Positions 9,861 through 26,782 of a DNA stretch of 33,551 bases are shown here, piece after piece; the stretch's first letter is position 1, and each line of letters starts with the position of its first letter. The translations under genes were made by a program, and so were the position numbers. The stretch spans positions 1 to 33,551 of the forward strand of contig JAPLZR010000042.1 in assembly GCA_026394935.1 (NCBI GenBank), written 5' to 3'. The DNA comes from Candidatus Woesearchaeota archaeon (lineage in GTDB: Archaea; Nanobdellota; Nanobdellia; Woesearchaeales; ARS49). The notes under the pieces are model-generated. The model was not told the DNA's origin and searched no databases. It saw nothing but the letters and a program-made list of their open reading frames with translations.

Positions 9861-9865
9861 CTAAA

Positions 9866-13237: not shown

Positions 13238-13344
13238 GACTTATGTGAATGAATGACTATGTTGTAATGTGCTTGTTCTGGTATGAAAATCATTTTAAAA
13301 GGGGTATTTAACGAAGTTCTATATGAAAACTGAGGGGTGGATTG

Positions 13345-14106
13345 ATGAATAAACCGCGGGTTCTTCTTTCATTGGATACTCCTGATGCTTTTGAATTAGT
13401 CAGGGATTTGCCTTTGGACAGCCGAGTTGATGTTTTCCGTGGTGTTTCTTCTGTTGAGAATTGCCCAGCAATTGCAGAGCATCACGCTATTTGGAATAAT
13501 TGGGATGCTATTGTTGCTGATTCTGTTCTGAACCTGGCGTTTCTTTTATCTTCTCACGCTGAACGCCCAGTCATTCCCATATCGCTTCCCCTAATGCAGG
13601 GTTATTGTGCCCTGTCTGTTGGTGATGACCAGTTTCAAAAAGCCGTTGGTTTTGCAGCTGATTTGCTGACGCAAGAGTACAAGCGAGTGGTGCTGTATAC
13701 TGCGCGATCTATCATACACGACCCTCTGCCATTTGCACTGCTTGGTAAGCTTGGTGTTGCGTATTATGTGGATTTGCCGCGCGGTCATGTTAAAAACCCT
13801 AAAGGAGATGAGCTTCCGCTTTTGTTGGAGCCGGCGGGCCATGTTATTGCCAAGCTGGAAGAGCACAAAAGATATGGTCTTGCTTGTTCGCGCAGCATTG
13901 TAAAAAATCATTATATTGCGGTTGTTGACAGTGATGAACATATTGCTCTTCTCGCTGCCAGAGTTATTGCAAGGCATGATCCGGATGTTGCGAAGAAACT
14001 TCAAGCTTATTATGAAGAGCAAAAGGAAAAGTACGAGCCGTTTAGAGCGGTTATTCCGCTTAGAAGTGTAAAACTAGGGGGTGGGATTGATGAGCGACAT
14101 AAGTGA
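13345..14106 (+). CDS. Hypothetical protein; degenerate PurE-like paralog
   Basis: The N-terminal ~85 aa align by eye with the adjacent PurE (RVLLSLDTPD vs AVIFAGSDSD; AIVADSVLNLAFLLSSHAERPVIPISLP vs YIAVAGGTDALSGTASFHSINPVISCPP). The GSxSD and SAHK motifs are lost. The C-terminal ALLAARVIARHDPDVAKKL resembles the PurE C-terminal helix. An SD precedes ATG 13345. Confidence 0.5.
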   Translation: MNKPRVLLSLDTPDAFELVRDLPLDSRVDVFRGVSSVENCPAIAEHHAIWNNWDAIVADSVLNLAFLLSSHAERPVIPISLPLMQGYCALSVGDDQFQKAVGFAADLLTQEYKRVVLYTARSIIHDPLPFALLGKLGVAYYVDLPRGHVKNPKGDELPLLLEPAGHVIAKLEEHKRYGLACSRSIVKNHYIAVVDSDEHIALLAARVIARHDPDVAKKLQAYYEEQKEKYEPFRAVIPLRSVKLGGGIDERHK

Positions 14107-14638
14107 GAGCGTTATATCATATGAAGTTATGGAAGCAATAAAGCAAAATAAGGGTTTTGCTGTTATATTTGCGGGTTCTGACAGCGACAGGCCTCATATC
14201 GACAAGCTGTCTGCAGCATTAAAAGAGTATCAGGTTCCTCATCAGGTAAGAATTTGTTCTGCGCACAAACAACCTGAAGCATTGCAAAAACTTGTTGGGG
14301 CTTATGATTCTATGGGAACACTTGCATACATAGCTGTTGCAGGTGGAACAGATGCTTTGTCAGGCACTGCAAGCTTCCATTCAATAAACCCGGTTATTAG
14401 TTGTCCTCCGGACGCGCCTAATGATACTTGTCTCAGGAATCCTCCTGGAAGCTCGAATGCGTACATACCAAATCCAAAGAACGCTGCAAGGTTTGTGGCG
14501 CAAATGTTTTCGCACTTGCCGGACACGCCTTACAGAAGACTGCTGGAAGCTGAAAAAACTAAAAAAGTTCTGGCTCTTGAAAAAGCCGATGGTGAACTAA
14601 GTAAGTTTCCTTATCAGCCTCAAGAGGTGAAAAAATGA
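14090..14638 (+). CDS. purE: Class II PurE (AIR carboxylase type)
   Basis: Motifs GSDSD, CSAHK and AVAGGTDALSG are present. NPVISCPP closely resembles the AIRc half of animal PAICS (YPVISCPP). An SD (agggggtggg) precedes ATG 14090; the track start is GTG 14081. Confidence 0.85.
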   Translation: MSDISESVISYEVMEAIKQNKGFAVIFAGSDSDRPHIDKLSAALKEYQVPHQVRICSAHKQPEALQKLVGAYDSMGTLAYIAVAGGTDALSGTASFHSINPVISCPPDAPNDTCLRNPPGSSNAYIPNPKNAARFVAQMFSHLPDTPYRRLLEAEKTKKVLALEKADGELSKFPYQPQEVKK

Positions 14639-15789
14639 GTTACCTTAGAACTGTTGAGAAGGGTACGAGTGTTAAATCTTTGGGCATTGTTGAAGAGCCG
14701 ACTCCTACAAAAACTGGAACGTTTGATTTTATTTATCGCAACCAGTATAGTATTCTTGATTGGGGTAAGATGCCTATGCCTGATGGAAAGGTTATGGACA
14801 ACAGTCCTGTTGCTCTTGTTGCTGCTTTTAATCACGAGCATGCCAGAAGGTATAGTGTTCCCACTTGTTATCAGGGTCCTGTTGATGACGCTGGCACTTC
14901 TCATTTGTCGCTTGCATGGTTTAGGGATAATGGCCAGGTTCCGCGCGCTTTGCGCATGCAAATGGTTAATGTTCTTAAGCCTGTTTTTGATGAGAAGACA
15001 AAGAAATGGGATTATTCTGTCTTCAAGAACCCTCCTGTGAACAATTATGTTCATCCTATTGAGTTTATCTGGCGTGCTGAAGCAGGTCCTGACAGCAGTT
15101 TTTGGAAGAATGTTGCCAAGGGTTCTTACAAGCTTATTGATTTTGGTTTGCCTGAAACTTTGAAGCCTGGTGATAATTTTCCTCAGTCTATTTTAGACCA
15201 TTCGAGCAAGTATGAGGATCACGACAGGTATTTTTCTCCTGCTGTTGCTCGCGAGCTTGGTAATTTTAGTAGTGAAAGATGGGAAAATTTGAATCGCTCG
15301 CGCTGGTGGCTTAACAAAATACTTTCTGACCACGCCGAATCTGTTGGACTGAGCAGGCCTGATGGCAAGCAGGAGTTTGTTGTTATGGATGTTAACGGCA
15401 CTCTTGTTGACGTGCTTGGTGATGTTGCAGGCACTTGGCACGAGGACCGTTTTGAGTACACTACTAAAGACGGTAAAATCGTAAAAGTCAGTAAGCAGAC
15501 GCCGAGAGATTTGCACAAGTTGCAGGATCCTGCGTGGGTTAAGCAGTGCGAAGAGGCAAAGGCAAAAGCAGAGAAAGAGGGTCATCCGAACTGGAAGGCT
15601 TTTGTTACTTTGGAGCCGCGTCCTTTGGAGGCTGAATTTTTTGACCATTATAACAATTTGATGTACGCTGCGAGCAATGCCTGGGTTAAATGGAAGGCTT
15701 TTCCGCAGGCGTCTTCGTTGGAAGTGGCTTGTGTTGAGTTTGACGGGTACTTGGCTGATTATAAGGCGAGGTTGCAGAAGAAGGCATAA
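14635..15789 (+). CDS. purC: SAICAR synthetase-like protein (divergent PurC, 384 aa)
   Basis: PIEFIWRAEAG resembles PIEWVCRRIATG of PAICS, and DGKQEFVV...DVLGDVAGTWHEDRF resembles D.K.EFG...ADVI..DSWRLW. ATGA overlap with purE, and an SD (gaggtga) is present. Confidence 0.65.
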   Translation: MSYLRTVEKGTSVKSLGIVEEPTPTKTGTFDFIYRNQYSILDWGKMPMPDGKVMDNSPVALVAAFNHEHARRYSVPTCYQGPVDDAGTSHLSLAWFRDNGQVPRALRMQMVNVLKPVFDEKTKKWDYSVFKNPPVNNYVHPIEFIWRAEAGPDSSFWKNVAKGSYKLIDFGLPETLKPGDNFPQSILDHSSKYEDHDRYFSPAVARELGNFSSERWENLNRSRWWLNKILSDHAESVGLSRPDGKQEFVVMDVNGTLVDVLGDVAGTWHEDRFEYTTKDGKIVKVSKQTPRDLHKLQDPAWVKQCEEAKAKAEKEGHPNWKAFVTLEPRPLEAEFFDHYNNLMYAASNAWVKWKAFPQASSLEVACVEFDGYLADYKARLQKKA

Positions 15790-17226
15790 ATGGCAAGAAA
15801 AACCATTCTTGAGCCTGGCAGGACTTTTCAGGAGTTTTCTATACTGCCGGGTTTTACAAGAGCGGACTGCTCTATACCCAACATCAATCTTGAAACAAGG
15901 CTTGCAGAGAATCTCGTGTTAAGGATTCCTTTGCTCAGTTCTGCGATGATGTCTGTTACTGGTTATGAGATGGCTTTGGCGCTTGGCAAGGAAGGGGGTC
16001 TTGGTGTTCTTCCTGTAAAACTATCAATAGCCGAGCAGTCAGATATTGTTTGCAGCATAAAGAATTATGAGATGGCTTTTGTTGAGGAGCCGATTACTGT
16101 TCGTGAAAATGCGAGTATTGATGAAGCTCTCAGGATTGTTGAACAGCAGGGGCATTCCAAAGTTCCTATTGTCAACAGAAACAATGTCTTTCTTGGCTTG
16201 TTTAATTATAATGAGTATTTGAAAATGCAGGTGTCCCGTAATGAACCCATCACCAAAGCTATGCTAAACGCTGAGAAGGTGCTTCACGTTCAAGAGCCTG
16301 GTTTGACTGTTGTTGCCGCCAGGGAGATTCTTGAGGAGAAGCAGGAGCATTACTTGGTCGTTCTTGATGACCAGCAGCGTCTTGTCAAGTTGGCGTTCAA
16401 GAAGGATGAGGAAAAGATTAAGGTTGGTGTTGCTATTTCTACTCATGAAGGCTGGGAGGAGCGTGCTGAGGCAAATCTTGCTGAGGGTGCTGACTTGATT
16501 GTTATTGACACTTCTGATGCTTTTAATGAATTTACAGGCAACGTTGTCTCTCGGTATAAAGAGATGGAAAGAAGTGTTCCTTTGTGTGCAGGCAATGTTG
16601 TGACGTATGAGGGCGCTATGTATTTGATGGAAAAGGGCGCTGATATGATTAAGGTTGGTATGAGTTCTGGCTCGATTTGTATTACCCAGCGGGAGAAGGC
16701 TGTTGGTCGTGCTCCTATGACTGCTTTGATGAAATGTGACCGTGCAAGGAAGGAATATATGAGAAAAACCAGTCGTTATGTTCCTATCATTGTTGATGGT
16801 GGTGTTGCCTGTCCTGCTGATATGGTGATTGCTCTGTCAATTACTGATGCGGTTATGATGGGCGGCTACTTCAATCGTTTTTTTGAGGCTGCTGGTGAGA
16901 AGATTGATGAGAATGGCAAGCTGACGACCGATGAAAAATCCATGCGCGAGGTTGCTACTTGGGGCGAGGGCTCGTTGAGGGCGATGAATATTGATCGTTA
17001 CAACCAAACTGCCAAGACTTTTTTTGCAGAGGGCGTTGAAGGCACTGTTCCTTACCGCGGCCGCTTGAAGCCTAATCTTAAGCGTGATTTGATGAAGGTT
17101 CGTGCTGCTATGAGCAATGCCGGCTGTTATAATCTTGAACAATTCAGGAAAGAGGCAATTATCGAGCTTAACTCGCCTACTGCAGCATACATTATCGGCA
17201 GTGCTCACGATGTTAAGACTAAATGA
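15790..17226 (+). CDS. guaB: IMP dehydrogenase with a CBS pair
   Basis: Motifs IPLLSSAMMSVT, KEGGLGVL, a CBS-like insert, VIDTSDAF, GNVVTYEGA, catalytic loop GMSSGSICITQ, and IIVDGGV. The start is directly adjacent to the purC stop (taaATG). Confidence 0.85.
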   Translation: MARKTILEPGRTFQEFSILPGFTRADCSIPNINLETRLAENLVLRIPLLSSAMMSVTGYEMALALGKEGGLGVLPVKLSIAEQSDIVCSIKNYEMAFVEEPITVRENASIDEALRIVEQQGHSKVPIVNRNNVFLGLFNYNEYLKMQVSRNEPITKAMLNAEKVLHVQEPGLTVVAAREILEEKQEHYLVVLDDQQRLVKLAFKKDEEKIKVGVAISTHEGWEERAEANLAEGADLIVIDTSDAFNEFTGNVVSRYKEMERSVPLCAGNVVTYEGAMYLMEKGADMIKVGMSSGSICITQREKAVGRAPMTALMKCDRARKEYMRKTSRYVPIIVDGGVACPADMVIALSITDAVMMGGYFNRFFEAAGEKIDENGKLTTDEKSMREVATWGEGSLRAMNIDRYNQTAKTFFAEGVEGTVPYRGRLKPNLKRDLMKVRAAMSNAGCYNLEQFRKEAIIELNSPTAAYIIGSAHDVKTK

Positions 17227-17236
17227 GGTGAAGACT

Positions 17237-18580
17237 ATGCATACAGCGATTATTGGCGCCCAATGGGGCGATGAGGGTAAGGGTAAGATTGTTGACATGC
17301 TTGCTGCCGAGCACGATGTTGTTGTTCGTTATAATGGCGGTCCGAATGCAGGGCATACTATTGTTGTTGGTGATAAGGAGATTATTTTGCATCAGGTTCC
17401 CAGCGGTGCTCCGCAGGGGAAGTTGTGTGTTATCGGCAATGGTTGTGTTGTAAATCCTGATCGTCTTGATGAGGAGTTGAAGCAGTTGTCTGACAATGGG
17501 ACTCCTGCTAATTTGCAGATTTCTGAGCGCGCTCATGTTATTACTCCTTATGATCTTTTGCTTGATGTAGGCTTGGAGATTTATAAGGGCAGGCAGGGCA
17601 AGAGGGTTGGCACGACTTTTCAGGGCATTGGTCCTGCGTACATGTTGAAAGCAGCCAGGACCGGTCTTACTTTTGGAGAGCTTTTGGAAACTGATAATTT
17701 GGCGGGCAGGGTTCAGGAGCTTCACGAATTCACAAAAGCGGTTCTCTCTGCTCTTGGTGTTTCTGGCGAGGATGTTTATTCTGCAATGAATAAAGATGAT
17801 TCTGCTGTGCGTATGAGCCGTGGTTTAAGGGCTTATTTTGAAAAAGAGATGGAGTTCAGAAAGGTATTGGACTCTTTGCAAGGGCATCGTGAGATGCTCA
17901 GCCCTATGGTTAGTGATATTTCTGTTTTGCTTTCTGAAGTTGATGATAATGGTTTGAGCATTCTTTTCGAGGGTGCTCAGGGTACCTTGCTTGATGTAGA
18001 CCACGGAACTTATCCTTACTGCACTGCTTCGAATGCGACTGTTGGCGGTGTTTTTGCAGGCACTGGTTTTGGAGGTCGTGTTGACAGGCGTATTGGTGTT
18101 TTGAAGGCTTACACTACAAGGGTTGGAGAGGGCGCGTTCCCGACTGAATTGAAGGATGAGACTGGTGCGCATATTCAGAAAAAAGGAGGGGAGTTCGGAG
18201 CTACTACAGGCCGTCCGAGGCGTGTTGGCTGGCTTGACCTTGTTATTGGCGAGTATGCTGCGCGTGTTAACGGTTTGACAGAGCTTGCTTTGACTAAGCT
18301 TGATGTTCTTGATGATTTGGATGAGATTGCTGTTTGTACAAGGTATAGCATTGATGGCAAGCCCGTCAGGCGTTTCCCTGCAAGCCCTCGGCTTCTTTCT
18401 CGCGCAGAGCCTTTCTACCAAGTATTTGGCGGGTGGAAGGCTGACACTACTAAGGCAAAAAGTTATGCAGACCTTCCTCCAAACGCGCAGGAATACATTT
18501 CTTTTATTGAGCAGGTTCTTCGCCTGCCTGTCAAATATGTTTCCAACGGTCCGAAGAGGGATCAGGTGATTGTGAGATGA
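17237..18580 (+). CDS. purA: Adenylosuccinate synthetase
   Basis: Motifs GAQWGDEGKGKIVD, GGPNAGHT, GTTFQGIGPAY and GATTGRPRRVGW are present. An SD (gaggtga) lies 6 nt upstream of ATG 17237. The track start 17117 overlaps guaB and is rejected. Confidence 0.95.
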   Translation: MHTAIIGAQWGDEGKGKIVDMLAAEHDVVVRYNGGPNAGHTIVVGDKEIILHQVPSGAPQGKLCVIGNGCVVNPDRLDEELKQLSDNGTPANLQISERAHVITPYDLLLDVGLEIYKGRQGKRVGTTFQGIGPAYMLKAARTGLTFGELLETDNLAGRVQELHEFTKAVLSALGVSGEDVYSAMNKDDSAVRMSRGLRAYFEKEMEFRKVLDSLQGHREMLSPMVSDISVLLSEVDDNGLSILFEGAQGTLLDVDHGTYPYCTASNATVGGVFAGTGFGGRVDRRIGVLKAYTTRVGEGAFPTELKDETGAHIQKKGGEFGATTGRPRRVGWLDLVIGEYAARVNGLTELALTKLDVLDDLDEIAVCTRYSIDGKPVRRFPASPRLLSRAEPFYQVFGGWKADTTKAKSYADLPPNAQEYISFIEQVLRLPVKYVSNGPKRDQVIVR

Positions 18581-20004
18581 GTCTTACAGAGCTGTTAGCC
18601 ATATCTCCTGTTGATGGCAGGTATCGTGAGGATGTTCAGGAGCTTGCTCCTTTTTGTTCTGAGTTTGCTTTGATTAAGAACAGGGTTAAGGTTGAAGTGG
18701 AATACTTGCTTGCTCTTGAGTCCGTCGGAATGATTGGTTTTGATAGTGCTGAAAGGCTTGCTTTGAGAAATACTTATGTGCATCTTTCAGAAGAGGATGC
18801 TCAGTTGATCAAAAACATTGAGACAAAAGGAGTGTCCGGCATTAACAACGGCAAGAAAACTGACCACGATGTCAAGTCTGTTGAGTTGTTTTTGAAACAC
18901 GTATACAAGAATTCCACGCTTAACAGGGCTATGGAATTGTTCCACATTTTCCTTACTTCTGAGGATGTTAACAACATTTGTTATTCTGTTATGCTTAAGG
19001 ATGCTGTTTACAAGTGTTTGATTCCTGCATTGGTTAAGCTTGAAGACAAGCTTGTTGCTATGGGTGACCAGTACAAAGCTATGCCTATGCCTGGCAGGAG
19101 TCACGGTCAGCACGCGATTCCGACAACTGTTGGAAAGGAATTGATGATTTTTGGTGAAAGGGTTGCCAAGCAGATGAAAGATTTGAGTGAAATCAGTCTG
19201 GAAGGAAAACTGAATGGCGCTATGGGCAATTACAGTGCGTTTTATGCTGGCAAGCCTGATGTTGATTGGCAGAAGTTCAGTAAAGCGTTTGTTGAATCAT
19301 TCGGCTTGAAGCACAATCCGTTTACAACGCAGATTGAGCCTCACGACAGCATGGCTGACATGTTCTATAAGCTTGCTCACATCAACACCATTCTTCTTGG
19401 CACTGATCAGGATATGTGGGGTTACATTAGTGATGAGTATTTTGTTCAGAAGCGCGAAGAAGGTGTTGTTGGCTCGTCTACTATGCCTCAGAAGATTAAT
19501 CCTATTAAGTTTGAGAATAGTGAGGGTAATTTGGGTATAGCTAATGCGTTTTTGCATTATTTTGCTACAAAACTGCCTGTTTCGCGTTTCCAGCGTGATT
19601 TGAGTGATAGTACTGTTCAGCGCTGGATTGGCACTGCTCTTGGTGCTGCGCTTGTTGCTTACAAGAATACTCTCAGGGGTCTGAACAAGTGTGAGCCTGG
19701 TGCGGTTTATCTTGGTAATGATTTGGATAAGCATTGGGAAATGCTTTCAGAGCCTATTCAGCAGATGTTGAGGGTTGAGGGAATTCCTGATGCGTACAAT
19801 ATGTTGAAAGATTTGACTCAGGGAAGGAATTGGACTCGTGATGATGTTGTTAATTTTGCTGACAAGGCGCCTGTGCGTCCTGAGGTTCGTGATAAAATAT
19901 TGGCTTTGACTCCGTTTAATTATGTTGGCAAGGCTCCAGAGCTGACTGTTGACTCTATTGCGCGCGTAAAAGATATTTTGGGAGATGTTAAAAGGTGCGC
20001 TTGA
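18577..20004 (+). CDS. purB: Adenylosuccinate lyase
   Basis: Fumarate-lyase signature GSSTMPQKINPIKFEN is present, with an SPVDGRY N-terminus. ATGA overlap with purA. Confidence 0.95.
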   Translation: MSLTELLAISPVDGRYREDVQELAPFCSEFALIKNRVKVEVEYLLALESVGMIGFDSAERLALRNTYVHLSEEDAQLIKNIETKGVSGINNGKKTDHDVKSVELFLKHVYKNSTLNRAMELFHIFLTSEDVNNICYSVMLKDAVYKCLIPALVKLEDKLVAMGDQYKAMPMPGRSHGQHAIPTTVGKELMIFGERVAKQMKDLSEISLEGKLNGAMGNYSAFYAGKPDVDWQKFSKAFVESFGLKHNPFTTQIEPHDSMADMFYKLAHINTILLGTDQDMWGYISDEYFVQKREEGVVGSSTMPQKINPIKFENSEGNLGIANAFLHYFATKLPVSRFQRDLSDSTVQRWIGTALGAALVAYKNTLRGLNKCEPGAVYLGNDLDKHWEMLSEPIQQMLRVEGIPDAYNMLKDLTQGRNWTRDDVVNFADKAPVRPEVRDKILALTPFNYVGKAPELTVDSIARVKDILGDVKRCA

Positions 20005-20044: not shown

Positions 20045-20752
20045 ATGCTTAAACTATCACCTAACATTTATGCGATTGACCTGTGCATTTACTTGTCTGA
20101 CATTAAAGCATTAATCATCTCAGACCTGCACCTTGGCTATGAGGAATCTTTGCAGAAGCGCGGTGTTCTTGTTCCTAAGACGATGTTTAAGCTGATAATA
20201 AAGCGTTTGGACTGGATTCTTTCTCAGGTTTCTGTTGAAAAGGTTATCTTGAACGGTGACATTAAACACGAGTTTGGCACGATTAGCGTGCAGGAGTGGC
20301 GTGAAGTGTTGCGTTTGATTGAGTATTTTGAGAAAAAGGATATTGAAATTCTTGCCATTAAGGGTAATCATGATACTATTTTCAGTCCTATTGCGAGAAA
20401 AAAGCAGATTAAAGAGGTTAAGGAAGCGCGTCACAAGGACATTTTGATTGCTCATGGCGATTACGTTCCTGAAAAGCTTTCTAAAATCATCATTATTGGT
20501 CACGAGCATCCTGCAATAACATTGAGAGAAAAAGCTAAATCTGAAAAGTTCAAGTGCTTTCTGAAAGGTAGATTCAAAAAGTCTGTTTTAATCGTTCTGC
20601 CTTCTTTTAATCCTTTGACTGAGGGTTCTGATGTCTTGAAAAAAGAGGTGTTGAGCCCGTTAATCAAGAATATCTCAAATTTTGATGTTTACATTGTGGA
20701 TGACAAGACTCATGAAGTTATGGCTTTTGGGAAAATTAAGACCCTAGTTTGA
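20045..20752 (+). CDS. Metallophosphoesterase (archaeal SbcD-related / ligase-associated PdeM-like type)
   Basis: Calcineurin-like motifs are present in order: ISDLHLG, NGDIKHEF, GNHD, GHEHP. Confidence 0.8.
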   Translation: MLKLSPNIYAIDLCIYLSDIKALIISDLHLGYEESLQKRGVLVPKTMFKLIIKRLDWILSQVSVEKVILNGDIKHEFGTISVQEWREVLRLIEYFEKKDIEILAIKGNHDTIFSPIARKKQIKEVKEARHKDILIAHGDYVPEKLSKIIIIGHEHPAITLREKAKSEKFKCFLKGRFKKSVLIVLPSFNPLTEGSDVLKKEVLSPLIKNISNFDVYIVDDKTHEVMAFGKIKTLV

Positions 20753-20870
20753 ACGATACCGGCTCTTCTTCTTCAGAGAACCATCTGTCGCTTCCTTCGC
20801 AGTGCCCGCAGTGTTTGCATACTGACTGGAGCTCTCCGTATTTTTCCCTGTGACATTTAGGGCAGTTCAT
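20736..20870 (-). CDS. Small zinc-ribbon protein (44 aa), paralog of 20916..21053
   Basis: Hand translation gives MNCPKCHREKYGELQSVCKHCGHCEGSDRWFSEEEEPVSFKLGS*. It has two CxxC pairs. It is below the ORF-track size cutoff and overlaps the phosphoesterase 3' end by 17 nt. Confidence 0.5.
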   Translation of the reverse strand: MNCPKCHREKYGELQSVCKHCGHCEGSDRWFSEEEEPVSFKLGS

Positions 20871-20915
20871 GGTTATTTAAGAAAAAGTTGATGTTTATAA
20901 GTTTAATTGTGAAAA

Positions 20916-21053
20916 TCAGAATTCGCTTAAAGGTATGCTTTCATCTTCGTTGTTGAACCATCTGTCTCCTCCTGAGTCGAATGTGTAGTTGCAGTGCCTG
21001 CAGAAGCTCTGCAGTTCTCCTATGACTTCTTTATCACATTTTGGGCATTTCAT
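20916..21053 (-). CDS. Small zinc-ribbon protein (45 aa), paralog of 20736..20870
   Basis: Hand translation gives MKCPKCDKEVIGELQSFCRHCNYTFDSGGDRWFNNEDESIPLSEF*. It shares M.CPKC..E..GELQS.C.HC...DRWF with its neighbour. Confidence 0.55.
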   Translation of the reverse strand: MKCPKCDKEVIGELQSFCRHCNYTFDSGGDRWFNNEDESIPLSEF

Positions 21054-21114
21054 GTTATTAGAACAAGTCCCGCCAACCCTTGCGGACTGGCGGGATTGTC
21101 GTAGTGAGTGAAGA

Positions 21115-21219
21115 CTATGAGTCTGGCTCGTCTTTGAGTACGCACATTCTGCATACGTACGAGTCTTGGCACCACAGCCCCATTATTTCCCCGCATCCCA
21201 CGCAGTATGCTCTTTTCAT
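21115..21219 (-). CDS. Small zinc-ribbon protein (34 aa)
   Basis: Hand translation gives MKRAYCVGCGEIMGLWCQDSYVCRMCVLKDEPDS*. GGAGGTG lies 10 nt upstream of the ATG. Confidence 0.5.
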   Translation of the reverse strand: MKRAYCVGCGEIMGLWCQDSYVCRMCVLKDEPDS

Positions 21220-21373
21220 CGGTTACAAACACCTCCAAACATCATCCATCATATGTCTGGAACATTGAAATTTTCATCGTCTCATCATCTTTTTAATGAA
21301 ACCGTCAAAACATTCATCACTTTGGTGCAATCCTACGAACTCCCTGATTTCTTCTATGTCCCGGATGAAGACT

Positions 21374-21550
21374 TTATTCAAGTTCTTCCTCTTCTTTCCA
21401 GTTGTCCATCATTTCTTTGTTTGCTTCCTCTACGCCTTGTTCGAAGGCAAGCTCACGTGCTGATTCTTCATCCATTCTATCTTCTGTGATTTCTTCTTCG
21501 TCTTCCTCGAACGGGTCAGGGAAGACCTTTTCAAACTCCATGCTTTTCAT
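21374..21550 (-). CDS. Small highly acidic protein (58 aa)
   Basis: Hand translation gives MKSMEFEKVFPDPFEEDEEEITEDRMDEESARELAFEQGVEEANKEMMDNWKEEEELE*. GGAGGTGGGAG lies immediately upstream of the ATG. Confidence 0.55.
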   Translation of the reverse strand: MKSMEFEKVFPDPFEEDEEEITEDRMDEESARELAFEQGVEEANKEMMDNWKEEEELE

Positions 21551-21658
21551 CTCCCACCTCCGCCCAACCGTAAGGGTTCTATAGGCAGAATGCCCTTTAT
21601 ATCTTTCCCTAATAGAATATAAAATTTATATAAAAAAAGAAATATTAATAATTAACGG

Positions 21659-21671
21659 AAAGATTTATATA
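21659..21671 (+). promoter_or_regulatory. TATA-box candidate (aaagatttatata) for the AbrB-PhoU gene
   Basis: TTTATATA lies ~45 nt upstream of ATG 21716, and a GGAGGG SD sits at 21704-21709. The same aagatttatata string recurs at 32622-32634. Confidence 0.45.
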
Positions 21672-21715
21672 GAAACTTATGCTTCCTTAATTTTAATATA
21701 TTTGGAGGGTTTATT

Positions 21716-22651
21716 ATGAGACGCAAAGTCATCCAGATTGCTGAATCTACACAGTTGATTTCATTGCCCAGGAAGTGGGCTTTGCAGCATAATATCAAGA
21801 AAGGCGATGAGCTCGAGGTTGAGATTGATGGCAGCAAGATAGTAGTGAATACCGACAGCACTCCTCCGTATACGAGCATCGAGGTTGATGTGTCTAATCT
21901 GGACAGGACCTCAATAGTCTTTATGATACGCGCGTTATACAAAAAAGGGTACGATGAAATAAAGCTAAGATACAATGCGCCCACAGCCCATCACTATCGC
22001 ACAGAAAAAGAGGTTAACGTCAGCACAATTGTCCACCAGGAAGTCAGCAGGTGTCCTGGTTTGGAGGTTATTGAGCAGAAGGATAATTATTTCATCCTGA
22101 AAGCTATCTCTGTTGCCGACCCTAAAGAGCTTGACAACATTCTGCGCAGGACATTTATTTTGATCTCTGACACCAACAAGGATTTTGTTCTTGCTTGCAA
22201 AAACAATGACCGGTCTTTGCTTGAATCTATCGAGGAAAAGCACGATAACGCGACGCGTTTCATTAATCATTCCTGCCGTCTTATCACAAAGAGTCGGCAC
22301 AATTCAAACACTGCTCACTTTTTGTATACCATTGTTTCAATGATGGATAAGATTCTTGACGTTATGAAGGACGGCGCCCGTTATATGCTGCTTTATAACA
22401 AAAAAATACGGCCTGAAACATTCGAGATTCTTGATTTTATGTGCAAATCTTATGGTACATTTTATGAGATGTTCTACAAGTTTGATCTGACGAAGGTGCA
22501 CAAGATGAATGAGGACAGGGAAACAATACACCAGCGGGTTCAGAAAGCGAAGAATATTCCAAAAGAGGAAATTCAGCTGCTTTATGACATGCACCAATCC
22601 CTTGAATTGTACCGCGCATTGACAGAGGCGCGAATGTCGATTGAGTATTAA
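21716..22651 (+). CDS. AbrB/SpoVT-domain + PhoU-like phosphate uptake regulator
   Basis: The N-terminus (RKVIQIAESTQLISLPRKWALQHNIKKGDELEVEIDGSKIVV) is a SpoVT/AbrB swapped-hairpin pattern. It is followed by a ~200-aa helical region with two PhoU-like repeats. Confidence 0.7.
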   Translation: MRRKVIQIAESTQLISLPRKWALQHNIKKGDELEVEIDGSKIVVNTDSTPPYTSIEVDVSNLDRTSIVFMIRALYKKGYDEIKLRYNAPTAHHYRTEKEVNVSTIVHQEVSRCPGLEVIEQKDNYFILKAISVADPKELDNILRRTFILISDTNKDFVLACKNNDRSLLESIEEKHDNATRFINHSCRLITKSRHNSNTAHFLYTIVSMMDKILDVMKDGARYMLLYNKKIRPETFEILDFMCKSYGTFYEMFYKFDLTKVHKMNEDRETIHQRVQKAKNIPKEEIQLLYDMHQSLELYRALTEARMSIEY

Positions 22652-24213
22652 TTTCCCAAAGGCGATTTAAAGGGAAATCTTTGAAGGTTTTGCGAGAAAG
22701 ACTGCCAGAAATTTATGTCGCCTGCATTTAGTTTTATTGCCCTGTAAAACTTGCCTCCTGTTTTTGCATAGCCGAATGTGACTGCATATATGCTGTCTGC
22801 AGGGTTTCGGTCTTTAAAATCGTCTCCGAGCATATACAGCAAACCATCGTTAAAAGCAGTCAGTGAGTCGTGGCATTTGCCATAGACGGACAATGGAATG
22901 AAATTTCTATGGGAGTTTCTCGCTCGCGATTCAAGACCTGCTGACATTTCTATCAGGTCAAGTGTTGCTTCCCGATAATCTATGTCTTCTTCACTTCTTT
23001 TCCAAGGCTCCATAAAAACTCCGAACCTGCCATAGGAATCAGAATGGCACGCCACTCTTTGTCTTTGAAGACAGGCAACTCTGCTTTGAGGAATGTGCTT
23101 TTCTTCAGCATATGCAAATGTAATGTCGCTCGGGATGGTCAGGGTTATCGGCTCGTTTCTGGCTATTCTTGAAAACAGGTCGTGCGGAAATACGCTGTGA
23201 AGAACTGAATCCACGTAGTTCTGGCTTGAATTATTTCGCTCCCACTGTATTATTGAGCGCAGCAGGCGTGCTGATTCTTCAGGGGTTGAATGCGTGGTGT
23301 TTATAGAATATTTATACAAATCTCTGCTGTCAAGAAAATATTCTATGCTGGCTTGAAGAGCATTCATGCGGCGTTCTTTTTCATCAAGAGGCGCTTTTCT
23401 GCGAAGAAGCCTCTCGCGAAGGACTGGAAGGTCTGCATGAAATAGTATTGGCACAGAAATATTTGGGTTGATTGCATCAAGTTTTTCCTTGATTTCGCCG
23501 ATGACGTCAGTGGTTAATGTGACCATTGCGTCGGTTCCGCGTTTTAACAGCTGTTCAAGGCTGGACGGAATGCCATATTTATGGCCTTGTATATCAAAAG
23601 TGTAGAAAAACTTGCCGTCGCGCTCCATTTTCGCAAATCTTTCTTTTGTAATGAACTGGAAATCCACTCCTTTTTTTTCATCGCTTCGCCTGGGCCGGGT
23701 GGTATACTTCTGTATGAAAACAACGTTCGGGTCATCTTTTACTCGATAACCCGCTTCAGTTTTTCCTGCGCAGGTTGGACCAACAAGAAAATAGCATTTG
23801 CCCGGTCTTGCTGCAGGGCTGGCCTCTATTGGCGTAATGTAGTCGCTTGCAAAACGTCTTAATAACAGTGGCGCTTCTTCCCTGATCCAGAAAACAGTGA
23901 TGTGCTTGTCTGACGCTGAACGCCTGTCTGCTTCTGTTCCAACTGCGACTACTTGTGCGTTTGGGAAAAGCCTGTACACTTCATCCGCTAATCCTGCGAT
24001 GTGCTTTCCTTCTATCAAAACAAGGTCGAATTCTGCTTTGTGGGCTTCAAACTGTCCCAATTCTTCTGGCTTGATTGTTCTTCCTAAAAGGGACATGACG
24101 TCAAATCCTTCGAGTTCTTTTTTGAATAAACGCGGATCTTTTTCAGCAAGAATGAGTGCTTTCGGAGGTTGTTCTGGTTCGATTAAATAAGTGGATTCAA
24201 GTTTGTTTATCAA
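22648..24213 (-). CDS. Multidomain protein: degenerate receiver-like domain, guanylate-kinase-like domain, unknown C-terminal domain; start uncertain (frame open to 24513)
   Basis: TTG start at 24213. aa 17-125 are receiver-like (KALILAEKD, FDLVLIEG, VVAVGT). aa 138-325 are GK-like (GPTCAGKT, TTRPRRSDEKKGVDFQF, HKYGIP). aa 330-521 are unassigned. The same frame has no stop until TAA at 24514-24516. Confidence 0.8.
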   Translation of the reverse strand: MINKLESTYLIEPEQPPKALILAEKDPRLFKKELEGFDVMSLLGRTIKPEELGQFEAHKAEFDLVLIEGKHIAGLADEVYRLFPNAQVVAVGTEADRRSASDKHITVFWIREEAPLLLRRFASDYITPIEASPAARPGKCYFLVGPTCAGKTEAGYRVKDDPNVVFIQKYTTRPRRSDEKKGVDFQFITKERFAKMERDGKFFYTFDIQGHKYGIPSSLEQLLKRGTDAMVTLTTDVIGEIKEKLDAINPNISVPILFHADLPVLRERLLRRKAPLDEKERRMNALQASIEYFLDSRDLYKYSINTTHSTPEESARLLRSIIQWERNNSSQNYVDSVLHSVFPHDLFSRIARNEPITLTIPSDITFAYAEEKHIPQSRVACLQRQRVACHSDSYGRFGVFMEPWKRSEEDIDYREATLDLIEMSAGLESRARNSHRNFIPLSVYGKCHDSLTAFNDGLLYMLGDDFKDRNPADSIYAVTFGYAKTGGKFYRAIKLNAGDINFWQSFSQNLQRFPFKSPLGN

Positions 24214-24512
24214 ATTCGCTATCTGGCGCGCTCCGCTGTCTCTTGGCAGGGTGTAAACGTGTTCGCTGTTGAAAAGTGTTTGTATGATTTTTTCTTGTGA
24301 CGGGTCGCAGACTACAACAAGGGGACTGTCGGGTCTTTTTTTGATAAGTCCTGCTATCTGCGATTGTCCTATGACCGGGTCTAGCGGGTTAAAAGCATCG
24401 TAGAAAATTACGTTTACATTTGAATCAGCCGCGTGTTGTAAATCCTGGCTTCTGAAAGAATATTCTGCACCCTCAACTGCACTGCGTACTCTGGTGAGGA
24501 AATACCAAAAAC

Positions 24513-24524
24513 TTTATAAATATA
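24513..24524. promoter_or_regulatory. TATA-like element in the 24214-24564 divergent region
   Basis: tttataaatata lies ~41 nt upstream of ATG 24565, and GGGGGGAGA lies just before that ATG. Confidence 0.4.
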
Positions 24525-24564
24525 CCGAATTTATGACTACCACGCAGTAGCACTAGGGGGGAGA

Positions 24565-25815
24565 ATGAATATTCAAGACATATTGCCGAAAACAGAAGGA
24601 AAGCACGAATTGTCAAAAGTCAATAAGGTTCTTCTAGATGCTGCAAAATCTCTGGAGCAATTATCAGTATCTCTTTCAAAGATAGATGCACTATTTAAGA
24701 CTGCCAATACGCAGTTTTCTGTTTTTTATGAGAATTTTTATGCTGCCAATTTTCCGCTTCATTTGGGCGCGTCAATTGCGTCCTATGCGGCAAAAAGAAT
24801 CTCAGAGCAGCATGTATCTTCTGCACAAGCCGAGGAAATCAGCAGGCTGCCCTGTATTGTTGATAAACTCGTTAGTGAAAAAAAGCTGGACACCCGAACA
24901 GTTGAGCTATTTTTCACATATTCTCAGGAAGATGTCAATAATCTCCGGCGTTCCGTAAGCGAAATCCCGGAGCACATTGAAAAATTTGGCTCGACAATGA
25001 AGCGTCTTAAGCATTTCTTTGATAAAAAGACCCCGGTTCACGTATACAAGGGGCTTGTCGCAACGCGCGACATAAGATATAACGGCGATTGGAATGAAAT
25101 GATTGCGGACTTGGAGAAAAAATTGGATGCTGATATGGCGCGCCAGGAACCCGAAGAAGCAGCATATAGTCTAAGAAGGTCGATTCTCGAATGCAAGATA
25201 ATACGCAGGTATGAGGACCAGGAAAGGATAAACCTGGCGCAGATTTCAAGAATTTTTGACAGGGTATGTGCTGTTTTGGATTTGGAAAGTTCTGTGGAAT
25301 TGTATAACGATCTTCGCGCAGTCAATCTTCCATCAAATGTTACGATAGCGATGGGTGAGTATTTTGCAGAAAGAGTTCATTCTCTTGAGAGAAGCGAAAT
25401 TGAAGAGCTTATCGGGCTTGTTAAAGTGCGCCTGGATACCGGCGTCTATTCTGCAAAAAATGTGGAGCTTTTCTTCCTTGCAGCGTCTGAAAAGCCAGGG
25501 TGCCGAAATGTTCCTGTTGCATCAATACCGGATTATCTGGAAAAATTTGATAGCTCAATCAAAGAATTGTCCGGCTTCATTGAAGATCACGCTGAATATA
25601 AAGCGTGCGTGGCTGAGCGAAACAGCAATTATCACAGAAGCTGGAGTCGTATGAAAAAATTCCTTGGCGACCAGCTCTCTATTGAGGAGCAAAAACCAGA
25701 GGGCAGCAAAGAACTTTCTGCACTAAAAGAAAAAGTGTCTGTGATAAATTCTATAATGGAAATGGAATCGAAATCCTGCTTGTCTAGTGTATCAAACAGG
25801 CTTTATAGCCGTTGA
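24565..25815 (+). CDS. Hypothetical helical protein with an internal ~125-aa duplication
   Basis: 416-aa ATG ORF with an SD. aa ~55-190 and ~258-385 align by eye (NFPLHLGASIASYAAKRI / NLPSNVTIAMGEYFAERV; TVELFF / NVELFF; SEIPEHIEKFGSTMKRL / ASIPDYLEKFDSSIKEL). Confidence 0.7.
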   Translation: MNIQDILPKTEGKHELSKVNKVLLDAAKSLEQLSVSLSKIDALFKTANTQFSVFYENFYAANFPLHLGASIASYAAKRISEQHVSSAQAEEISRLPCIVDKLVSEKKLDTRTVELFFTYSQEDVNNLRRSVSEIPEHIEKFGSTMKRLKHFFDKKTPVHVYKGLVATRDIRYNGDWNEMIADLEKKLDADMARQEPEEAAYSLRRSILECKIIRRYEDQERINLAQISRIFDRVCAVLDLESSVELYNDLRAVNLPSNVTIAMGEYFAERVHSLERSEIEELIGLVKVRLDTGVYSAKNVELFFLAASEKPGCRNVPVASIPDYLEKFDSSIKELSGFIEDHAEYKACVAERNSNYHRSWSRMKKFLGDQLSIEEQKPEGSKELSALKEKVSVINSIMEMESKSCLSSVSNRLYSR

Positions 25816-25853
25816 AACATAGATTTATAAAGGGGTGTCTTTGAACTTTTAAT

Positions 25854-26147
25854 ATGATGGTAGACCACGATACTGGCAAGGACACGGATGCAATTGAAGC
25901 GCAGCATCTTCTATACGTTGCTAGCCTGCCTCCCGGAACAAGAAGACTTATCAGTCAAAGAATGTCTCTCGGCAGAGGCAGTTGGGAGACTTTGGAAGAA
26001 AAAATACCAAGAGCAAAAAGCCAGATTGAAGAATTAAGAACGTATGAAGCAATTCACGGCGTTGATCTCGATTATTATCTCAAGCGCCATCAGGAAAATT
26101 TAAATCCCAGATTGCCCAATGACTCGACAACAGATACCACTTCATAA
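25854..26147 (+). CDS. Hypothetical small protein
   Basis: 97-aa ATG ORF. Its 3' 58 nt overlap the convergent HAD gene. No motif recognised. Confidence 0.4.
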   Translation: MMVDHDTGKDTDAIEAQHLLYVASLPPGTRRLISQRMSLGRGSWETLEEKIPRAKSQIEELRTYEAIHGVDLDYYLKRHQENLNPRLPNDSTTDTTS

Positions 26148-26782
26148 ACCGCCTTTCTTCTGAAATGATACGTGCCAAACTTTTCATCATGTTCTATGTC
26201 GCGTTCTATGCCGAGAGCTTCAGCGCCTACAAGCAGGGTGTTCATACCTAGTCTTCTTGCTGGCGCGATGTCTGCTCTTTCACTGTCGCCTACAAACATC
26301 AGTTCAAATGGATCACACTTGGATCTTACTATGACTTCATCAAATCCTGACGGCTTTCCACCGCCTTCTTCATTGGTCATCATGTACTTGAACATTGTTA
26401 AATCCACGCCAAGCTTGGAAAGGACAGCGAATAGTTCAGGTCTTGAATCATTTGTGTATATGCTTATATCGAGATTTTTCTGCTTTAAACAAATAAGAGC
26501 CTCATTAAGTAATGGGTCTGGATTAAGCAAGTCAGTAATATCTGCGCCTTGGGCAATATCTGAAGCATCCAAAGCTGAAAGGCCGAACATGTTTTTTATT
26601 GAGGACAGCCTGGTTCCATATTCTTTTCTGCCCTGCTGGAACCTGGTCCTCACTTCACTCTCCGGTCTTTTTAATAAAGCAGAAATTTTTGAGCATACAT
26701 GATTATCTCTTCTGGCAGTTATGTCTGGCGTTAAGGCATAAAGAGTTCCGTTGCAGTCAAACCAGACGTGGTCAAGTTCCAT
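26090..26782 (-). CDS. HAD superfamily hydrolase
   Basis: Motif I variant WFDCNGTLY (D-x-N-G-T), a cap region, motif III region YTNDSR, and motif IV FVGDSERADI are present. Confidence 0.75.
   Translation of the reverse strand: MELDHVWFDCNGTLYALTPDITARRDNHVCSKISALLKRPESEVRTRFQQGRKEYGTRLSSIKNMFGLSALDASDIAQGADITDLLNPDPLLNEALICLKQKNLDISIYTNDSRPELFAVLSKLGVDLTMFKYMMTNEEGGGKPSGFDEVIVRSKCDPFELMFVGDSERADIAPARRLGMNTLLVGAEALGIERDIEHDEKFGTYHFRRKAVYEVVSVVESLGNLGFKFS

What the first reader, a model, noticed from the sequence alone, without database searches (positions are those of the whole stretch)
22648..24516. Receiver-like + guanylate-kinase-like + orphan-domain protein with a 100-codon start-less in-frame upstream extension
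Seen:
- The minus-strand ORF begins at a TTG (24213), but the same frame stays open for 100 more codons, up to a TAA at 24514-24516.
- Checking codon by codon, I find no ATG, GTG or TTG among those 100 codons.
- The extension translates to ..TRVRSAVEGAEYSFRSQDLQHAADSNVNVIFYDAFNPLDPVIGQSQIAGLIKKRPDSPLVVVCDPSQEKIIQTLFNSEHVYTLPRDSGARQIAN.
- This has the beta/alpha periodicity of a CheY-like receiver from helix 1 onward (VIFYD as beta3, PLVVVCD as beta4). It lacks beta1 and the acidic pair.
- aa 17-125 of the called ORF look like a second, degenerate receiver.
- aa 138-325 carry GMP-kinase hallmarks (GPTCAGKT, TTRPRRSDEKKGVDFQF, HKYGIP).
- aa 330-521 match nothing I recognise.

Established: GPSGxGK[ST] and TTRxPRxxExxGxxYxF are guanylate-kinase family motifs.

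Inference:
- The N-terminus may be decaying, may use a non-canonical start (ATT/ATA/ATC/CTG occur in frame), or may hide an assembly indel.
- I cannot place the REC-REC-GK-X architecture in any described system.
- It sits tail-to-tail with a PhoU-like regulator and head-to-head with an orphan repeat protein.
- This is my best candidate for an undescribed signalling or nucleotide-linked module.
Basis: partly seen in the sequence, partly recalled or inferred. Interest (0 to 1): 0.75.

Follow-up and report, generated by a model that had tools for sequence, protein, structure and literature searches.

The report
Missing 107 bp truncates novel kinase gene
The "start-less" upstream extension exists because this contig lacks 107 bases that hold the gene's real start; the intact gene encodes a rare, uncharacterised archaeal guanylate-kinase-like protein that always sits next to an AbrB-type DNA-binding regulator.

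Summary
The minus-strand ORF 22648-24213 has 100 further open codons with no ATG, GTG or TTG.

The cause is ordinary. Compared with three assemblies of a 97.6%-identical strain, the window lacks 107 bp at 24496|24495. Those bases carry a GGTG ribosome-binding site, the ATG and 22 codons (MPEDSTNFLYLKEEGVPWTDLE). Because 107 is not a multiple of 3, the frame shifts, and the "closing" TAA lies inside the gene's own TATA box.

A Logan contig that is 100% identical to the window over 1741 bp reads on into the missing segment. I therefore favour a mis-assembly or a minority deletion over gene decay. The 35:9 ratio of synonymous to non-synonymous codon changes agrees.

The intact protein has 637 aa: two (beta-alpha)5 receiver-like domains without a conserved phospho-acceptor, a kinase-competent guanylate-kinase fold that has lost its guanine-contact residues, and a roughly 190-aa C-terminal domain with no Pfam or PDB sequence match.

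The family is tiny, 13 clusters among 1.84 billion representative proteins. In 9 of 9 readable contexts a convergent AbrB-family gene abuts its 3' end.

I infer a regulatory kinase paired with a transcription factor. The function is untested.

The parts
22648..24213 (-). ORF as annotated in the deposited contig (TTG start, 521 aa). It is the 3' 82% of the real gene.
   Evidence: One search shows a 521-aa cluster member from an NCBI contig of 33551 bp, which is this window.
24214..24495 (-). 94 authentic codons upstream of the TTG (TRVRSAVEG...QIAN). They code for the rest of receiver-like domain 1, from helix 1 onward.
   Evidence: Collinear with P0001 residues 56-149 and with the orthologues. 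There are 5 synonymous and 0 non-synonymous changes against L001 in the first 91 codons.
24495..24496 (-). Junction where 107 bp are missing (TTTCCTC|ACCAGAG). There is no microhomology at the break.
   Evidence: Alignments A1, A2 and A9; one search gives the 107-bp sequence; one search finds no flanking repeat.
24496..24513 (-). Six pseudo-codons (SFWYFL). These are really the 5' leader and promoter-proximal DNA, read in the wrong frame because of the deletion.
   Evidence: In L001 the same bases lie upstream of the ATG, in another frame.
24513..24520 (-). TATA-box-like TTTATAAA. The TAA that 'closes' the extension (24516-24514) lies inside it.
   Evidence: In L001 the element ends 58 nt upstream of the ATG. 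That it is a promoter is inferred from the archaeal promoter consensus, not tested.
23836..24168 (-). Receiver-like (beta-alpha)5 domain 2. An invariant E-G sits where a receiver has its phospho-acceptor Asp.
   Evidence: AF2 model residues 165-275; invariant E217 and G218 in alignment A4; weak similarity to response regulators.
23233..23808 (-). Guanylate-kinase-fold P-loop kinase domain (GPTCAGKT, TTRPRRSDE, YG, lid arginines).
   Evidence: Pfam PF00625 scores 30.1 bits against a cut-off of 25.2. PDB GK sequences match at E=2.4e-10. Foldseek gives E=5e-12 and target-normalised TM about 0.8.
22651..23232 (-). Family-specific C-terminal domain of about 190 aa. Motifs: YGRxGhF, LDLIE, RxRN, FNDGLLYxLGDD, YAVxFG.
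   Evidence: No Pfam or PDB sequence match. 13 representative homologues found. Alignment A6. Model confidence in this domain is mostly pLDDT 85-94.
21716..22651 (+). Conserved convergent partner: a 311-aa AbrB/SpoVT-domain protein with a helical, weakly PhoU-like C-terminal region. Its stop codon overlaps the target's stop in TTAA.
   Evidence: PF04014 hits 7 of 7 partners. PhoU and PhoU_div reach only E=0.005-0.011. The gene is adjacent in 9 of 9 family members with readable context.
24565..25815 (+). Divergent 416-aa protein with an internal duplication. It shares a 110-bp promoter region with the intact target gene. The linkage is lineage-specific, not family-wide.
   Evidence: 35% identity to the L003 neighbour and 24% to the L004 neighbour. 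Absent beside the distant members.
21374..21550 (-). Small acidic ORF (58 aa), divergent from the AbrB gene. Possibly a third component of the module.
   Evidence: The motif E-x-A/G-F-x-x-G-x-[DE]-[DEQ]-A is shared with small ORFs at the same position in L031, L026 and L027. No Pfam hit.

Best explanation
Shown:
- The window lacks 107 bp at 24496|24495.
- In every other assembly that covers this spot, those bases carry a GGTG Shine-Dalgarno-like site, the ATG and the first 22 codons of the gene.
- Their loss removes the start codon and strand beta1 of the first domain. It also shifts the frame, so leader DNA is read as six codons up to a TAA that is part of the promoter's TATA box. This is the 'start-less extension'.
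- An independent assembly of the same strain runs through the junction into the missing segment.
- The gene evolves under purifying selection.

From these last two points I take the gap to be a mis-assembly or a minority deletion allele, not decay of the gene.

Shown by alignment and model: the intact gene encodes a 637-aa protein with four parts.
- Two (beta-alpha)5 receiver-like input domains that lack a conserved phospho-acceptor.
- A guanylate-kinase-fold domain. Its P-loop, its pair of arginines that bind the substrate phosphate, and its lid arginines are conserved. Its guanine-contact positions are replaced.
- A family-specific C-terminal domain.

The GK domain plus the C-terminal domain form the invariant core. 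The N-terminal domains vary or are absent in distant members.

Inferred: the core is an ATP-dependent kinase acting on a phosphorylated substrate other than GMP. The variable N-terminal domains gate it. It works together with the AbrB-type DNA-binding protein whose gene always abuts its 3' end. Either the kinase sets the level of a ligand that the regulator senses, or it acts directly on the regulator.
For: Deletion:
- Alignments A1 and A2 show the gap.
- The 107-bp segment is identical in L001 and L002.
- L035, a third assembly, holds the last 43 bp of the segment.
- Orthologues at 34-41% identity (A3/A4) start MPxxxhhFLK, which aligns with M34 of P0001. That position lies inside the missing segment.
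- In the AF2 model, residues 1-36 of the over-called P0001 are disordered and beta1 is residues 39-45.

Same strain, intact allele:
- L041 nt 38-1778 equal window 24496-26236 with 0 mismatches. L001 has 30 mismatches over the same stretch.
- L041 nt 1-37 equal the first 37 bp of the segment.

Selection:
- 46 nucleotide differences in 1848 nt, giving 35 synonymous and 9 non-synonymous codon changes. None of the non-synonymous ones falls in the first 91 codons.

Kinase domain:
- Pfam, PDB sequence and Foldseek hits.
- Nearly invariant G294, G299, K300, R322, R325, E328, Y362, G363, R417 and R421 across 12 members.

Core and variable N-termini:
- P0011 (444 aa) is the GK domain plus the C-terminal domain only. 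P0010 and P0012 have different N-termini.

Partner gene:
- A convergent 311-316 aa AbrB gene, overlapping or within 3 bp of the target's stop, is present for P0001, P0002, P0003, P0005, P0009, P0010, P0011, P0012 and P0023.
- Three of these contexts have otherwise unrelated neighbours.
Against: - De Bruijn assemblers need real junction k-mers, and the break has no repeat or microhomology. A true deletion allele may therefore exist in the sample that gave this MAG.
- L041 stops 37 bp into the segment, so the whole 107 bp has not been seen in the window's strain.
- No substrate, activity or protein-protein contact was tested.
- Convergent genes are not co-transcribed, so linkage to the partner rests on adjacency alone.
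- The fold of the C-terminal domain could not be searched on its own.
Confidence: 0.65

Rival explanations
1. The 107-bp deletion is real and fixed in this genome. The gene is then a fresh pseudogene, or it yields an N-terminally truncated protein starting at TTG 24213 or ATG 24096 that lacks receiver-like domain 1.
For: The deposited NCBI contig carries the junction and the gene is annotated as 521 aa. There is no repeat at the break that would explain an assembler collapse. The promoter is retained.
Against: A contig 100% identical to the window from SRR20698646 continues into the segment without branching at the junction. The rest of the gene shows no damage and has a 35:9 ratio of synonymous to non-synonymous changes. 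All nine orthologue groups keep the N-terminus or a different complete one.
Confidence: 0.25
2. The extension is translated from a non-canonical start codon (ATT, ATA, ATC or CTG) or from a leaderless transcript. The window's sequence is then complete as it stands.
For: In-frame near-cognate codons exist at 24408, 24372, 24357, 24345 and elsewhere.
Against: Close strains and distant orthologues all have a normal ATG, plus a conserved beta1 strand upstream of the junction. Any near-cognate start would begin inside the domain and lack beta1.
Confidence: 0.03
3. Rival on function: the protein is this lineage's housekeeping GMP kinase, with added regulatory domains. This would fit its position near guaB, purA and purB.
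For: Pfam Guanylate_kin scores above its cut-off. The catalytic residues are intact. A purine gene cluster lies 2.6 kb away. JGI names some members 'guanylate kinase'.
Against: It scores far below the NCBIfam equivalog cut-off, 61.6 against 160 bits. The positions aligned with the guanine and GMP contacts of solved GKs are K, a hydrophobic residue, I/V and T. The purine neighbours are absent in distant members. With only 13 clusters in 1.84 billion representatives, the family is too rare for a general housekeeping role.
Confidence: 0.15
4. Rival on function: the GK domain is a non-catalytic binding module, as in MAGUK scaffolds, and the protein is an adaptor.
For: The GK fold can evolve into a phospho-peptide binder. 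MAGUK GK domains are among the PDB sequence matches.
Against: The Walker A motif GxxxxGK[ST] and the lid arginines are nearly invariant in the family. From my own knowledge, MAGUK GK domains have lost the P-loop.
Confidence: 0.05

Closest known systems
Guanylate kinase (Gmk, PF00625, EC 2.7.4.8)
   Same: Same fold: Foldseek target-normalised TM about 0.8, E=5e-12. It shares the P-loop, the TTRxPRxxE phosphate-binding motif, the YG motif and the lid arginines.
   Different: Identity is about 20-24%. It scores far below the equivalog cut-off. The guanine-contact positions are replaced. The domain sits in a 637-aa protein between two receiver-like domains and an orphan C-terminal domain.
PhnN ribose 1,5-bisphosphokinase (TIGR02322)
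   Same: A GK-fold kinase that acts on a phosphorylated substrate other than GMP. It scores nearly as well as Gmk against this protein (52 against 62 bits).
   Different: The score is below the cut-off of 156 bits. No phn genes are nearby. From my recall of the E. coli sequence, PhnN lacks the TTRxPR motif, which this family keeps.
Pseudo-receiver domains (CheY-like fold without phosphorylation)
   Same: (beta-alpha)5 topology. Domain 2 has an invariant Glu at the end of beta3. The domains sit at the N-terminus, ahead of an output module.
   Different: There is no significant sequence match to PF00072 for this protein. The acidic pocket, the T/S and the K signature residues are not conserved.
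Archaeal AbrB-PhoU-type regulators (compared with the partner gene)
   Same: An N-terminal AbrB/SpoVT swapped-hairpin DNA-binding domain (PF04014, 7 of 7 partners), followed by a helical C-terminal region of about the right size.
   Different: PhoU and PhoU_div hits are below threshold (E=0.005-0.011, each in 1 of 7 partners). A profile search of PDB sequences found no PhoU structure. There is an extra, highly conserved middle segment (LDRSS...LYKKGYDEI).

Membership tests
Guanylate kinase (PF00625 / TIGR03263) | Pfam domain score above the gathering threshold | tested here: met
   30.1 bits against a cut-off of 25.2.
Guanylate kinase (PF00625 / TIGR03263) | NCBIfam equivalog score (same function as Gmk) | tested here: not met
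   TIGR03263 scores 61.6 bits against a cut-off of 160.45. PRK14738 scores 60.9 against 263.
Guanylate kinase (PF00625 / TIGR03263) | GK fold with P-loop GxxxxGK[ST], TTRxPRxxE and lid arginines | tested here: met
   Foldseek against PDB: top 50 hits are all guanylate kinases (9lo3, 2an9, 1gky), E down to 5e-12. Nearly invariant G294, G299, K300, R322, R325, E328, R417 and R421.
Guanylate kinase (PF00625 / TIGR03263) | Guanine/GMP-contact residues (yeast S34, E69, S80, D100, recalled from the 1GKY complex) | tested here: not met
   The aligned positions are K, Y or another hydrophobic residue, I/V/L, and T (HMMER alignment to S. aureus GK; family columns). The mapping of these residues to function rests on my own knowledge.
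Guanylate kinase (PF00625 / TIGR03263) | GMP + ATP -> GDP + ADP activity | not testable with these tools
   Needs an enzyme assay.
CheY-like receiver (PF00072) | Significant profile match to Response_reg | tested here: not met
   No hit for either N-terminal domain at E<=10. One of 9 family N-termini hits at E=0.032.
CheY-like receiver (PF00072) | (beta-alpha)5 flavodoxin-like topology | tested here: met
   AF2 model with mean pLDDT 80.8. Strands and helices alternate over residues 39-159 and 167-275.
CheY-like receiver (PF00072) | Conserved phospho-acceptor Asp after beta3, acidic pair after beta1, T/S after beta4, K after beta5 | tested here: not met
   The Asp of VIFYD in domain 1 is A, Q, I or S in the orthologues. 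Domain 2 has an invariant E-G instead.
CheY-like receiver (PF00072) | Remote homology by profile-profile comparison | tested here: inconclusive
   hhalign against five receiver sequences recalled from memory: domain 1 P=0.0012 (98 columns, probability 19%); domain 2 P=0.013. Controls gave P=0.03-0.2. The best PDB profile hit is response regulator 2qxy at E=0.047.
PhoU (PF01895 / PF01865), for the partner gene | PhoU-domain match above threshold | tested here: not met
   PhoU_div scores 16.6 bits against a cut-off of 24.4 (E=0.0053). PhoU reaches E=0.011 in 1 of 7 partners. No PhoU structure was found with the profile.
AbrB/SpoVT (PF04014), for the partner gene | N-terminal swapped-hairpin DNA-binding domain | tested here: met
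   33.2 bits against a cut-off of 24.7. All 7 partners hit, best E=2e-9.
PhnN (TIGR02322) | Equivalog score | tested here: not met
   52.3 bits against a cut-off of 156.
Known anti-phage defence proteins (PADLOC) | Match to any defence-system model | tested here: not met
   No hit for P0001 or P0011. P0010 and P0012 give only weak P-loop hits.

The most novel reading that the evidence does not exclude
The invariant core (GK-fold kinase plus orphan C-terminal domain), its interchangeable N-terminal sensor domains and the obligately adjacent AbrB-type regulator, perhaps with the small acidic protein, could form an undescribed archaeal signalling module. In it, a guanylate-kinase-derived enzyme would make or consume a phosphorylated small-molecule signal, or phosphorylate the regulator itself, to control transcription.
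Probability: 0.25. Interest if true: 0.6.

Novelty: new variant of a known kind. Interest (0 to 1): 0.35.

Why it matters
For annotation, the deposited 521-aa protein is a truncation caused by 107 missing bases. It should be corrected or flagged rather than read as gene decay or exotic initiation.

For biology, the intact gene defines a very small, unnamed family, probably archaeal. A catalytically competent guanylate-kinase fold has lost its guanine pocket, gained sensor-like domains and an orphan domain, and kept a fixed genomic partnership with an AbrB-type transcription factor.

If the pairing is functional, it would be a new way of linking nucleotide or phosphate chemistry to transcription in archaea. 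That is a modest but testable lead.

Tried and rejected
- **Word-index homologue searches.** The full protein returned only the 99%-identical P0001. The C-terminal domain alone returned nothing. The family profile returned only canonical small GKs. The exhaustive phmmer search was needed to find the family.
- **Single-sequence AF2.** Useless, pLDDT 37.5.
- **Foldseek of the whole model.** Both PDB and BFVD hit lists are dominated by GK hits. The C-terminal and receiver-like domains therefore could not be assigned by structure.
- **GGDEF or cyclase palm idea for the C-terminal domain.** The order beta-alpha-alpha-beta-beta-alpha-beta-beta and the GDD motif suggested it. hhalign against recalled PleD and WspR sequences gave probability 0.8%, so I rejected it.
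- **Defence-system reading.** PADLOC found nothing for the kinase.
- **Mobile-element origin.** The C-terminal domain has no tblastn hit in the plasmid or phage collections.
- **Repeat-mediated deletion or excision.** There are no direct or inverted repeats at the junction.
- **Other assemblies of the deletion allele.** I looked up the exact 521-aa and 482-aa products and neither is on record.
- **Literature searches.** Searches on AbrB/PhoU in archaea, the 'missing' archaeal guanylate kinase, and CARF/AbrB found nothing that describes this family.
- **Organism.** The purA protein is of the long type, which says little about taxonomy. No tRNA or Rfam hit in the window.
Full report
**1. The observation**

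On the minus strand, the ORF called from TTG 24213 to the stop at 22648 has 521 aa. The same frame stays open upstream to a TAA at 24516-24514. A codon-by-codon check finds no ATG, GTG or TTG among the 100 intervening codons. Only near-cognate codons (ATT, ATA, ATC, CTG) occur. These three start codons make up 3.6% of the ORF's own codons, so a run of 100 without any has a chance of about 0.025.

**2. What causes it**

The only close relative in the 5.8-billion-protein index is P0001, at 99% identity and 670 aa. It lies on ENA contig L001.

A DNA alignment shows the window lacks exactly 107 bp present in L001, between window positions 24496 and 24495. The junction reads TATTTCCTC|ACCAGAG. JGI contig L002 carries the identical 107 bp. 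A third assembly, L035, holds its last 43 bp.

The segment reads CTCTGCTGATAGTCGATATTCCGATATTGGCAGTGGTGCAAATGCCTGAAGAT... It contains a GGTG Shine-Dalgarno-like site, an ATG and 22 codons (MPEDSTNFLYLKEEGVPWTDLE).

Because 107 is not a multiple of three, the leader DNA upstream of the junction is read in a false frame as six codons (SFWYFL). This continues up to a TAA that lies inside the TATA-like TTTATAAA at 24520-24513. So 94 of the 100 'extension' codons are genuine coding sequence. They have lost their start.

**3. Where orthologues start**

An exhaustive phmmer search with the C-terminal 197 aa found 13 representatives among 1.84 billion proteins. Six of them are full-length orthologues of 636-657 aa. 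Their N-termini (MPHIDVLFLK, MPTGLTTDILFLRE, MPTPATVIFLK, MSADILYLKQ and others) align with M34 of P0001 (MPEDSTNFLYLKEE).

The gene caller's 33 extra residues in P0001 are disordered in the model. The first strand is residues 39-45.

The conserved start therefore lies inside the 107 bp that the window lacks. It rules out the need for a non-canonical initiation codon.

**4. Artefact or real deletion?**

The window is a different strain from L001, L002 and L035, at about 97.6% identity. In the shared 1848 nt of the gene there are 46 differences. These give 35 synonymous and 9 non-synonymous codon changes, none of the latter in the first 91 codons. The gene is under purifying selection and not decaying.

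Two Logan contigs from run SRR20698646 are 100% identical to the window:
- L037 matches window 20663-22685.
- L041 matches over nt 38-1778, which equal window 24496-26236 with 0 mismatches. L001 has 30 mismatches over the same stretch.

L041 does not turn into ACCAGAG at the junction. Instead it continues for 37 bp into the 'missing' segment. The window's own strain therefore carries at least the start of the segment in an independent assembly.

Some cautions apply:
- The break has no repeat or microhomology.
- A k-mer assembler needs real junction reads, so a minority deletion allele may exist.
- L041 ends inside the segment, as does L035, at offsets 37 and 64. This hints at a locally difficult assembly graph.

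I put about 0.65-0.7 on mis-assembly or a minority variant and about 0.25 on a fixed deletion. The deposited record annotates the 521-aa truncation.

**5. Anatomy of the intact protein**

The intact protein has 637 aa. With the 13-sequence family alignment, AlphaFold2 gives mean pLDDT 80.8.

*N-terminal domains.* Residues 38-160 and 165-275 (P0001 numbering) are each alternating beta-alpha units of the flavodoxin or CheY type.

Sequence support for 'receiver' is below threshold:
- No Response_reg hit for this protein.
- One of nine family N-termini hits at E=0.032.
- The best PDB profile hit is response regulator 2qxy, at E=0.047.
- hhalign gives P=0.0012 for domain 1 and 0.013 for domain 2, against controls of 0.03-0.2.

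The Asp of VIFYD is not conserved among orthologues. Domain 2 has an invariant Glu-Gly at that position. At best these are pseudo-receivers.

*Kinase domain.* Residues 285-476 are a guanylate-kinase fold:
- Pfam scores 30.1 bits against a cut-off of 25.2.
- PDB GK sequences match at E=2.4e-10.
- The top 50 Foldseek PDB hits are all guanylate kinases, with target-normalised TM up to 0.81.

The Walker A motif, TTRxPRxxE, the YG motif and two lid arginines are nearly invariant, so catalysis is plausible.

However, the protein scores far below the Gmk equivalog cut-off, 61.6 against 160 bits, and PhnN scores almost as well. From my knowledge of the yeast 1GKY complex, residues S34, E69, S80 and D100 contact the guanine and GMP in solved enzymes. 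The positions aligned with them here are K, a hydrophobic residue, I/V/L and T. I infer a phosphorylated acceptor other than GMP.

*C-terminal domain.* Residues 477-661 form a confidently modelled alpha/beta domain. Its conserved motifs are YGRxGhF, LDLIE, RxRN, FNDGLLYxLGDD and YAVxFG. It has no Pfam or PDB sequence match, even with a profile. It has no tblastn hit in the plasmid or phage collections. A GGDEF-like palm idea was tested and rejected. I could not search its fold separately, because Foldseek on the whole model returns only GK hits.

**6. Family and context**

The GK domain plus the C-terminal domain form the invariant core. P0011 (444 aa) has nothing else. P0010, from a Woesearchaeota MAG, and P0012 have different N-terminal regions. 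This pattern, a fixed catalytic core with interchangeable N-terminal modules, is typical of signalling enzymes. That reading is an inference.

In every context I could read, a 311-316 aa gene encoding an AbrB/SpoVT-domain protein converges on the 3' end of the kinase gene. It overlaps the kinase gene by 4-32 bp or lies within 3 bp of its stop. The contexts cover P0001, P0002, P0003, P0005, P0009, P0010, P0011, P0012 and P0023. In the P0009 context the convergent gene is cut by the contig end, so only 279 aa are seen and its AbrB domain was not checked. Three of these contexts (L025, L026, L027) share no other neighbours with the window. The adjacency is therefore not just lineage synteny.

The partner is better conserved than the kinase, at 35-72% against 21-41% identity. 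Its AbrB domain is solid. Its PhoU-likeness is weak.

The same holds for the nearby purine genes guaB, purA and purB.

The organisms are uncultured. MAG labels include Methanosarcinales (twice), Woesearchaeota and one Binatia bin that is probably mis-binned. The TATA-box promoter and a diphthamide-synthase-family gene (Diphthami_syn_2) in the syntenic L030 and L042 contigs are consistent with archaea.

**7. Mechanism**

Shown: the protein is a kinase-competent GK fold with an altered acceptor pocket, fused to sensor-like domains and an orphan domain, and its gene has a fixed partner encoding a DNA-binding protein.

Inferred, at about 0.35-0.4: it is a regulatory kinase whose activity is gated by the N-terminal domains. 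It controls the AbrB-type regulator either through a phosphorylated metabolite or nucleotide, or directly. The abutting convergent 3' ends leave no room for terminators, which suggests transcriptional interference between the two genes.

Rivals on function are a lineage-specific GMP kinase (0.15) and a non-catalytic scaffold (0.05).

**8. Verdict**

The headline oddity is an indel in the assembly and is ordinary. The protein behind it belongs to a very rare, unnamed family, a new architectural variant of the guanylate-kinase fold with a conserved regulator partner. It is worth a note and a modest follow-up, not the 0.75 first assigned. Interest 0.35.

Noticed in passing
window 21374-21550 (-); L031 9085-9276; L026 5937-6086; L027 7675-7821: A small acidic ORF (48-63 aa) lies divergent from the AbrB partner gene. 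It shares the motif E-x-A/G-F-x-x-G-x-[DE]-[DEQ]-A even in distant family contexts. It may be a third component of the module. No Pfam match.
   Followed up: partly
window 22648-22651, and the equivalent spot in L003, L004, L025-L027, L031, L042: The kinase gene and the AbrB gene converge with overlapping or abutting stop codons (TTAA here; 4-32 bp overlap, or a gap of 3 bp or less, elsewhere). No room is left for terminators. This suggests antisense or transcriptional interference.
   Followed up: partly
window 22651-24495 compared with L001: Strain differences are very unevenly spread. 41 of 46 fall in the first 806 nt, which code for the receiver-like domains. Only 5 fall in the 1040 nt that code for the GK and C-terminal domains, and all 9 amino-acid changes lie before the GK domain.
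   Followed up: partly
L041 nt 1-37; L035 end (reverse strand): Two independent assemblies break inside the 107-bp segment, at offsets 37 and 64. This hints at local strain variation or a coverage problem exactly where the window has its gap.
   Followed up: no
window 21869-22093 (partner aa 52-126): The highly conserved middle segment of the AbrB partner (LDRSS...LYKKGYDEI) gives a weak hit to the PADLOC model 'CARF6--CARF_CARF_CARF' (E=5e-5). Only 2 of 7 partners hit, so this is unconfirmed. If real, it would point to a ligand-sensing domain.
   Followed up: partly
window 12716-20004: A run of purine-nucleotide genes: NTPase_I-T (DUF84), an AIR carboxylase-like gene, a SAICAR-synthetase-like gene, IMP dehydrogenase, adenylosuccinate synthetase and adenylosuccinate lyase. 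The purA ORF overlaps guaB by about 110 nt, and its Pfam match begins only at aa 44 of the ORF, so its start is probably over-called.
   Followed up: partly
window 8000-12066: A low-GC stretch (33-39% against about 42% elsewhere) with reversed AT skew. It contains unannotated ORFs and a Bro-N domain protein (11227-12066, minus strand). It may be an integrated mobile or viral element.
   Followed up: no
window 24565-25815 (+): The divergent 416-aa protein is an internal tandem duplication: its N- and C-terminal halves align to each other through the L003 orthologue. It has no family match and is conserved only within this lineage.
   Followed up: partly
L025 4009-4677; L026 2723-3469: V4R-domain (small-molecule-binding) genes lie near the kinase gene in two distant family members. 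In L026 the gene is immediately upstream and on the same strand.
   Followed up: no
L030 (P0009, HSU72372.1): This family member is deposited as 'Candidatus Binatia bacterium'. Yet its contig shares class II LysRS and RimK with the window and additionally carries a diphthamide-synthase-family gene. It is probably a mis-binned archaeal contig.
   Followed up: no
window 20753-21715: About 960 bp between the metallophosphoesterase gene and the AbrB gene has no long ORF, tRNA or Rfam match. In L031 the equivalent space holds an 822-aa gene.
   Followed up: no
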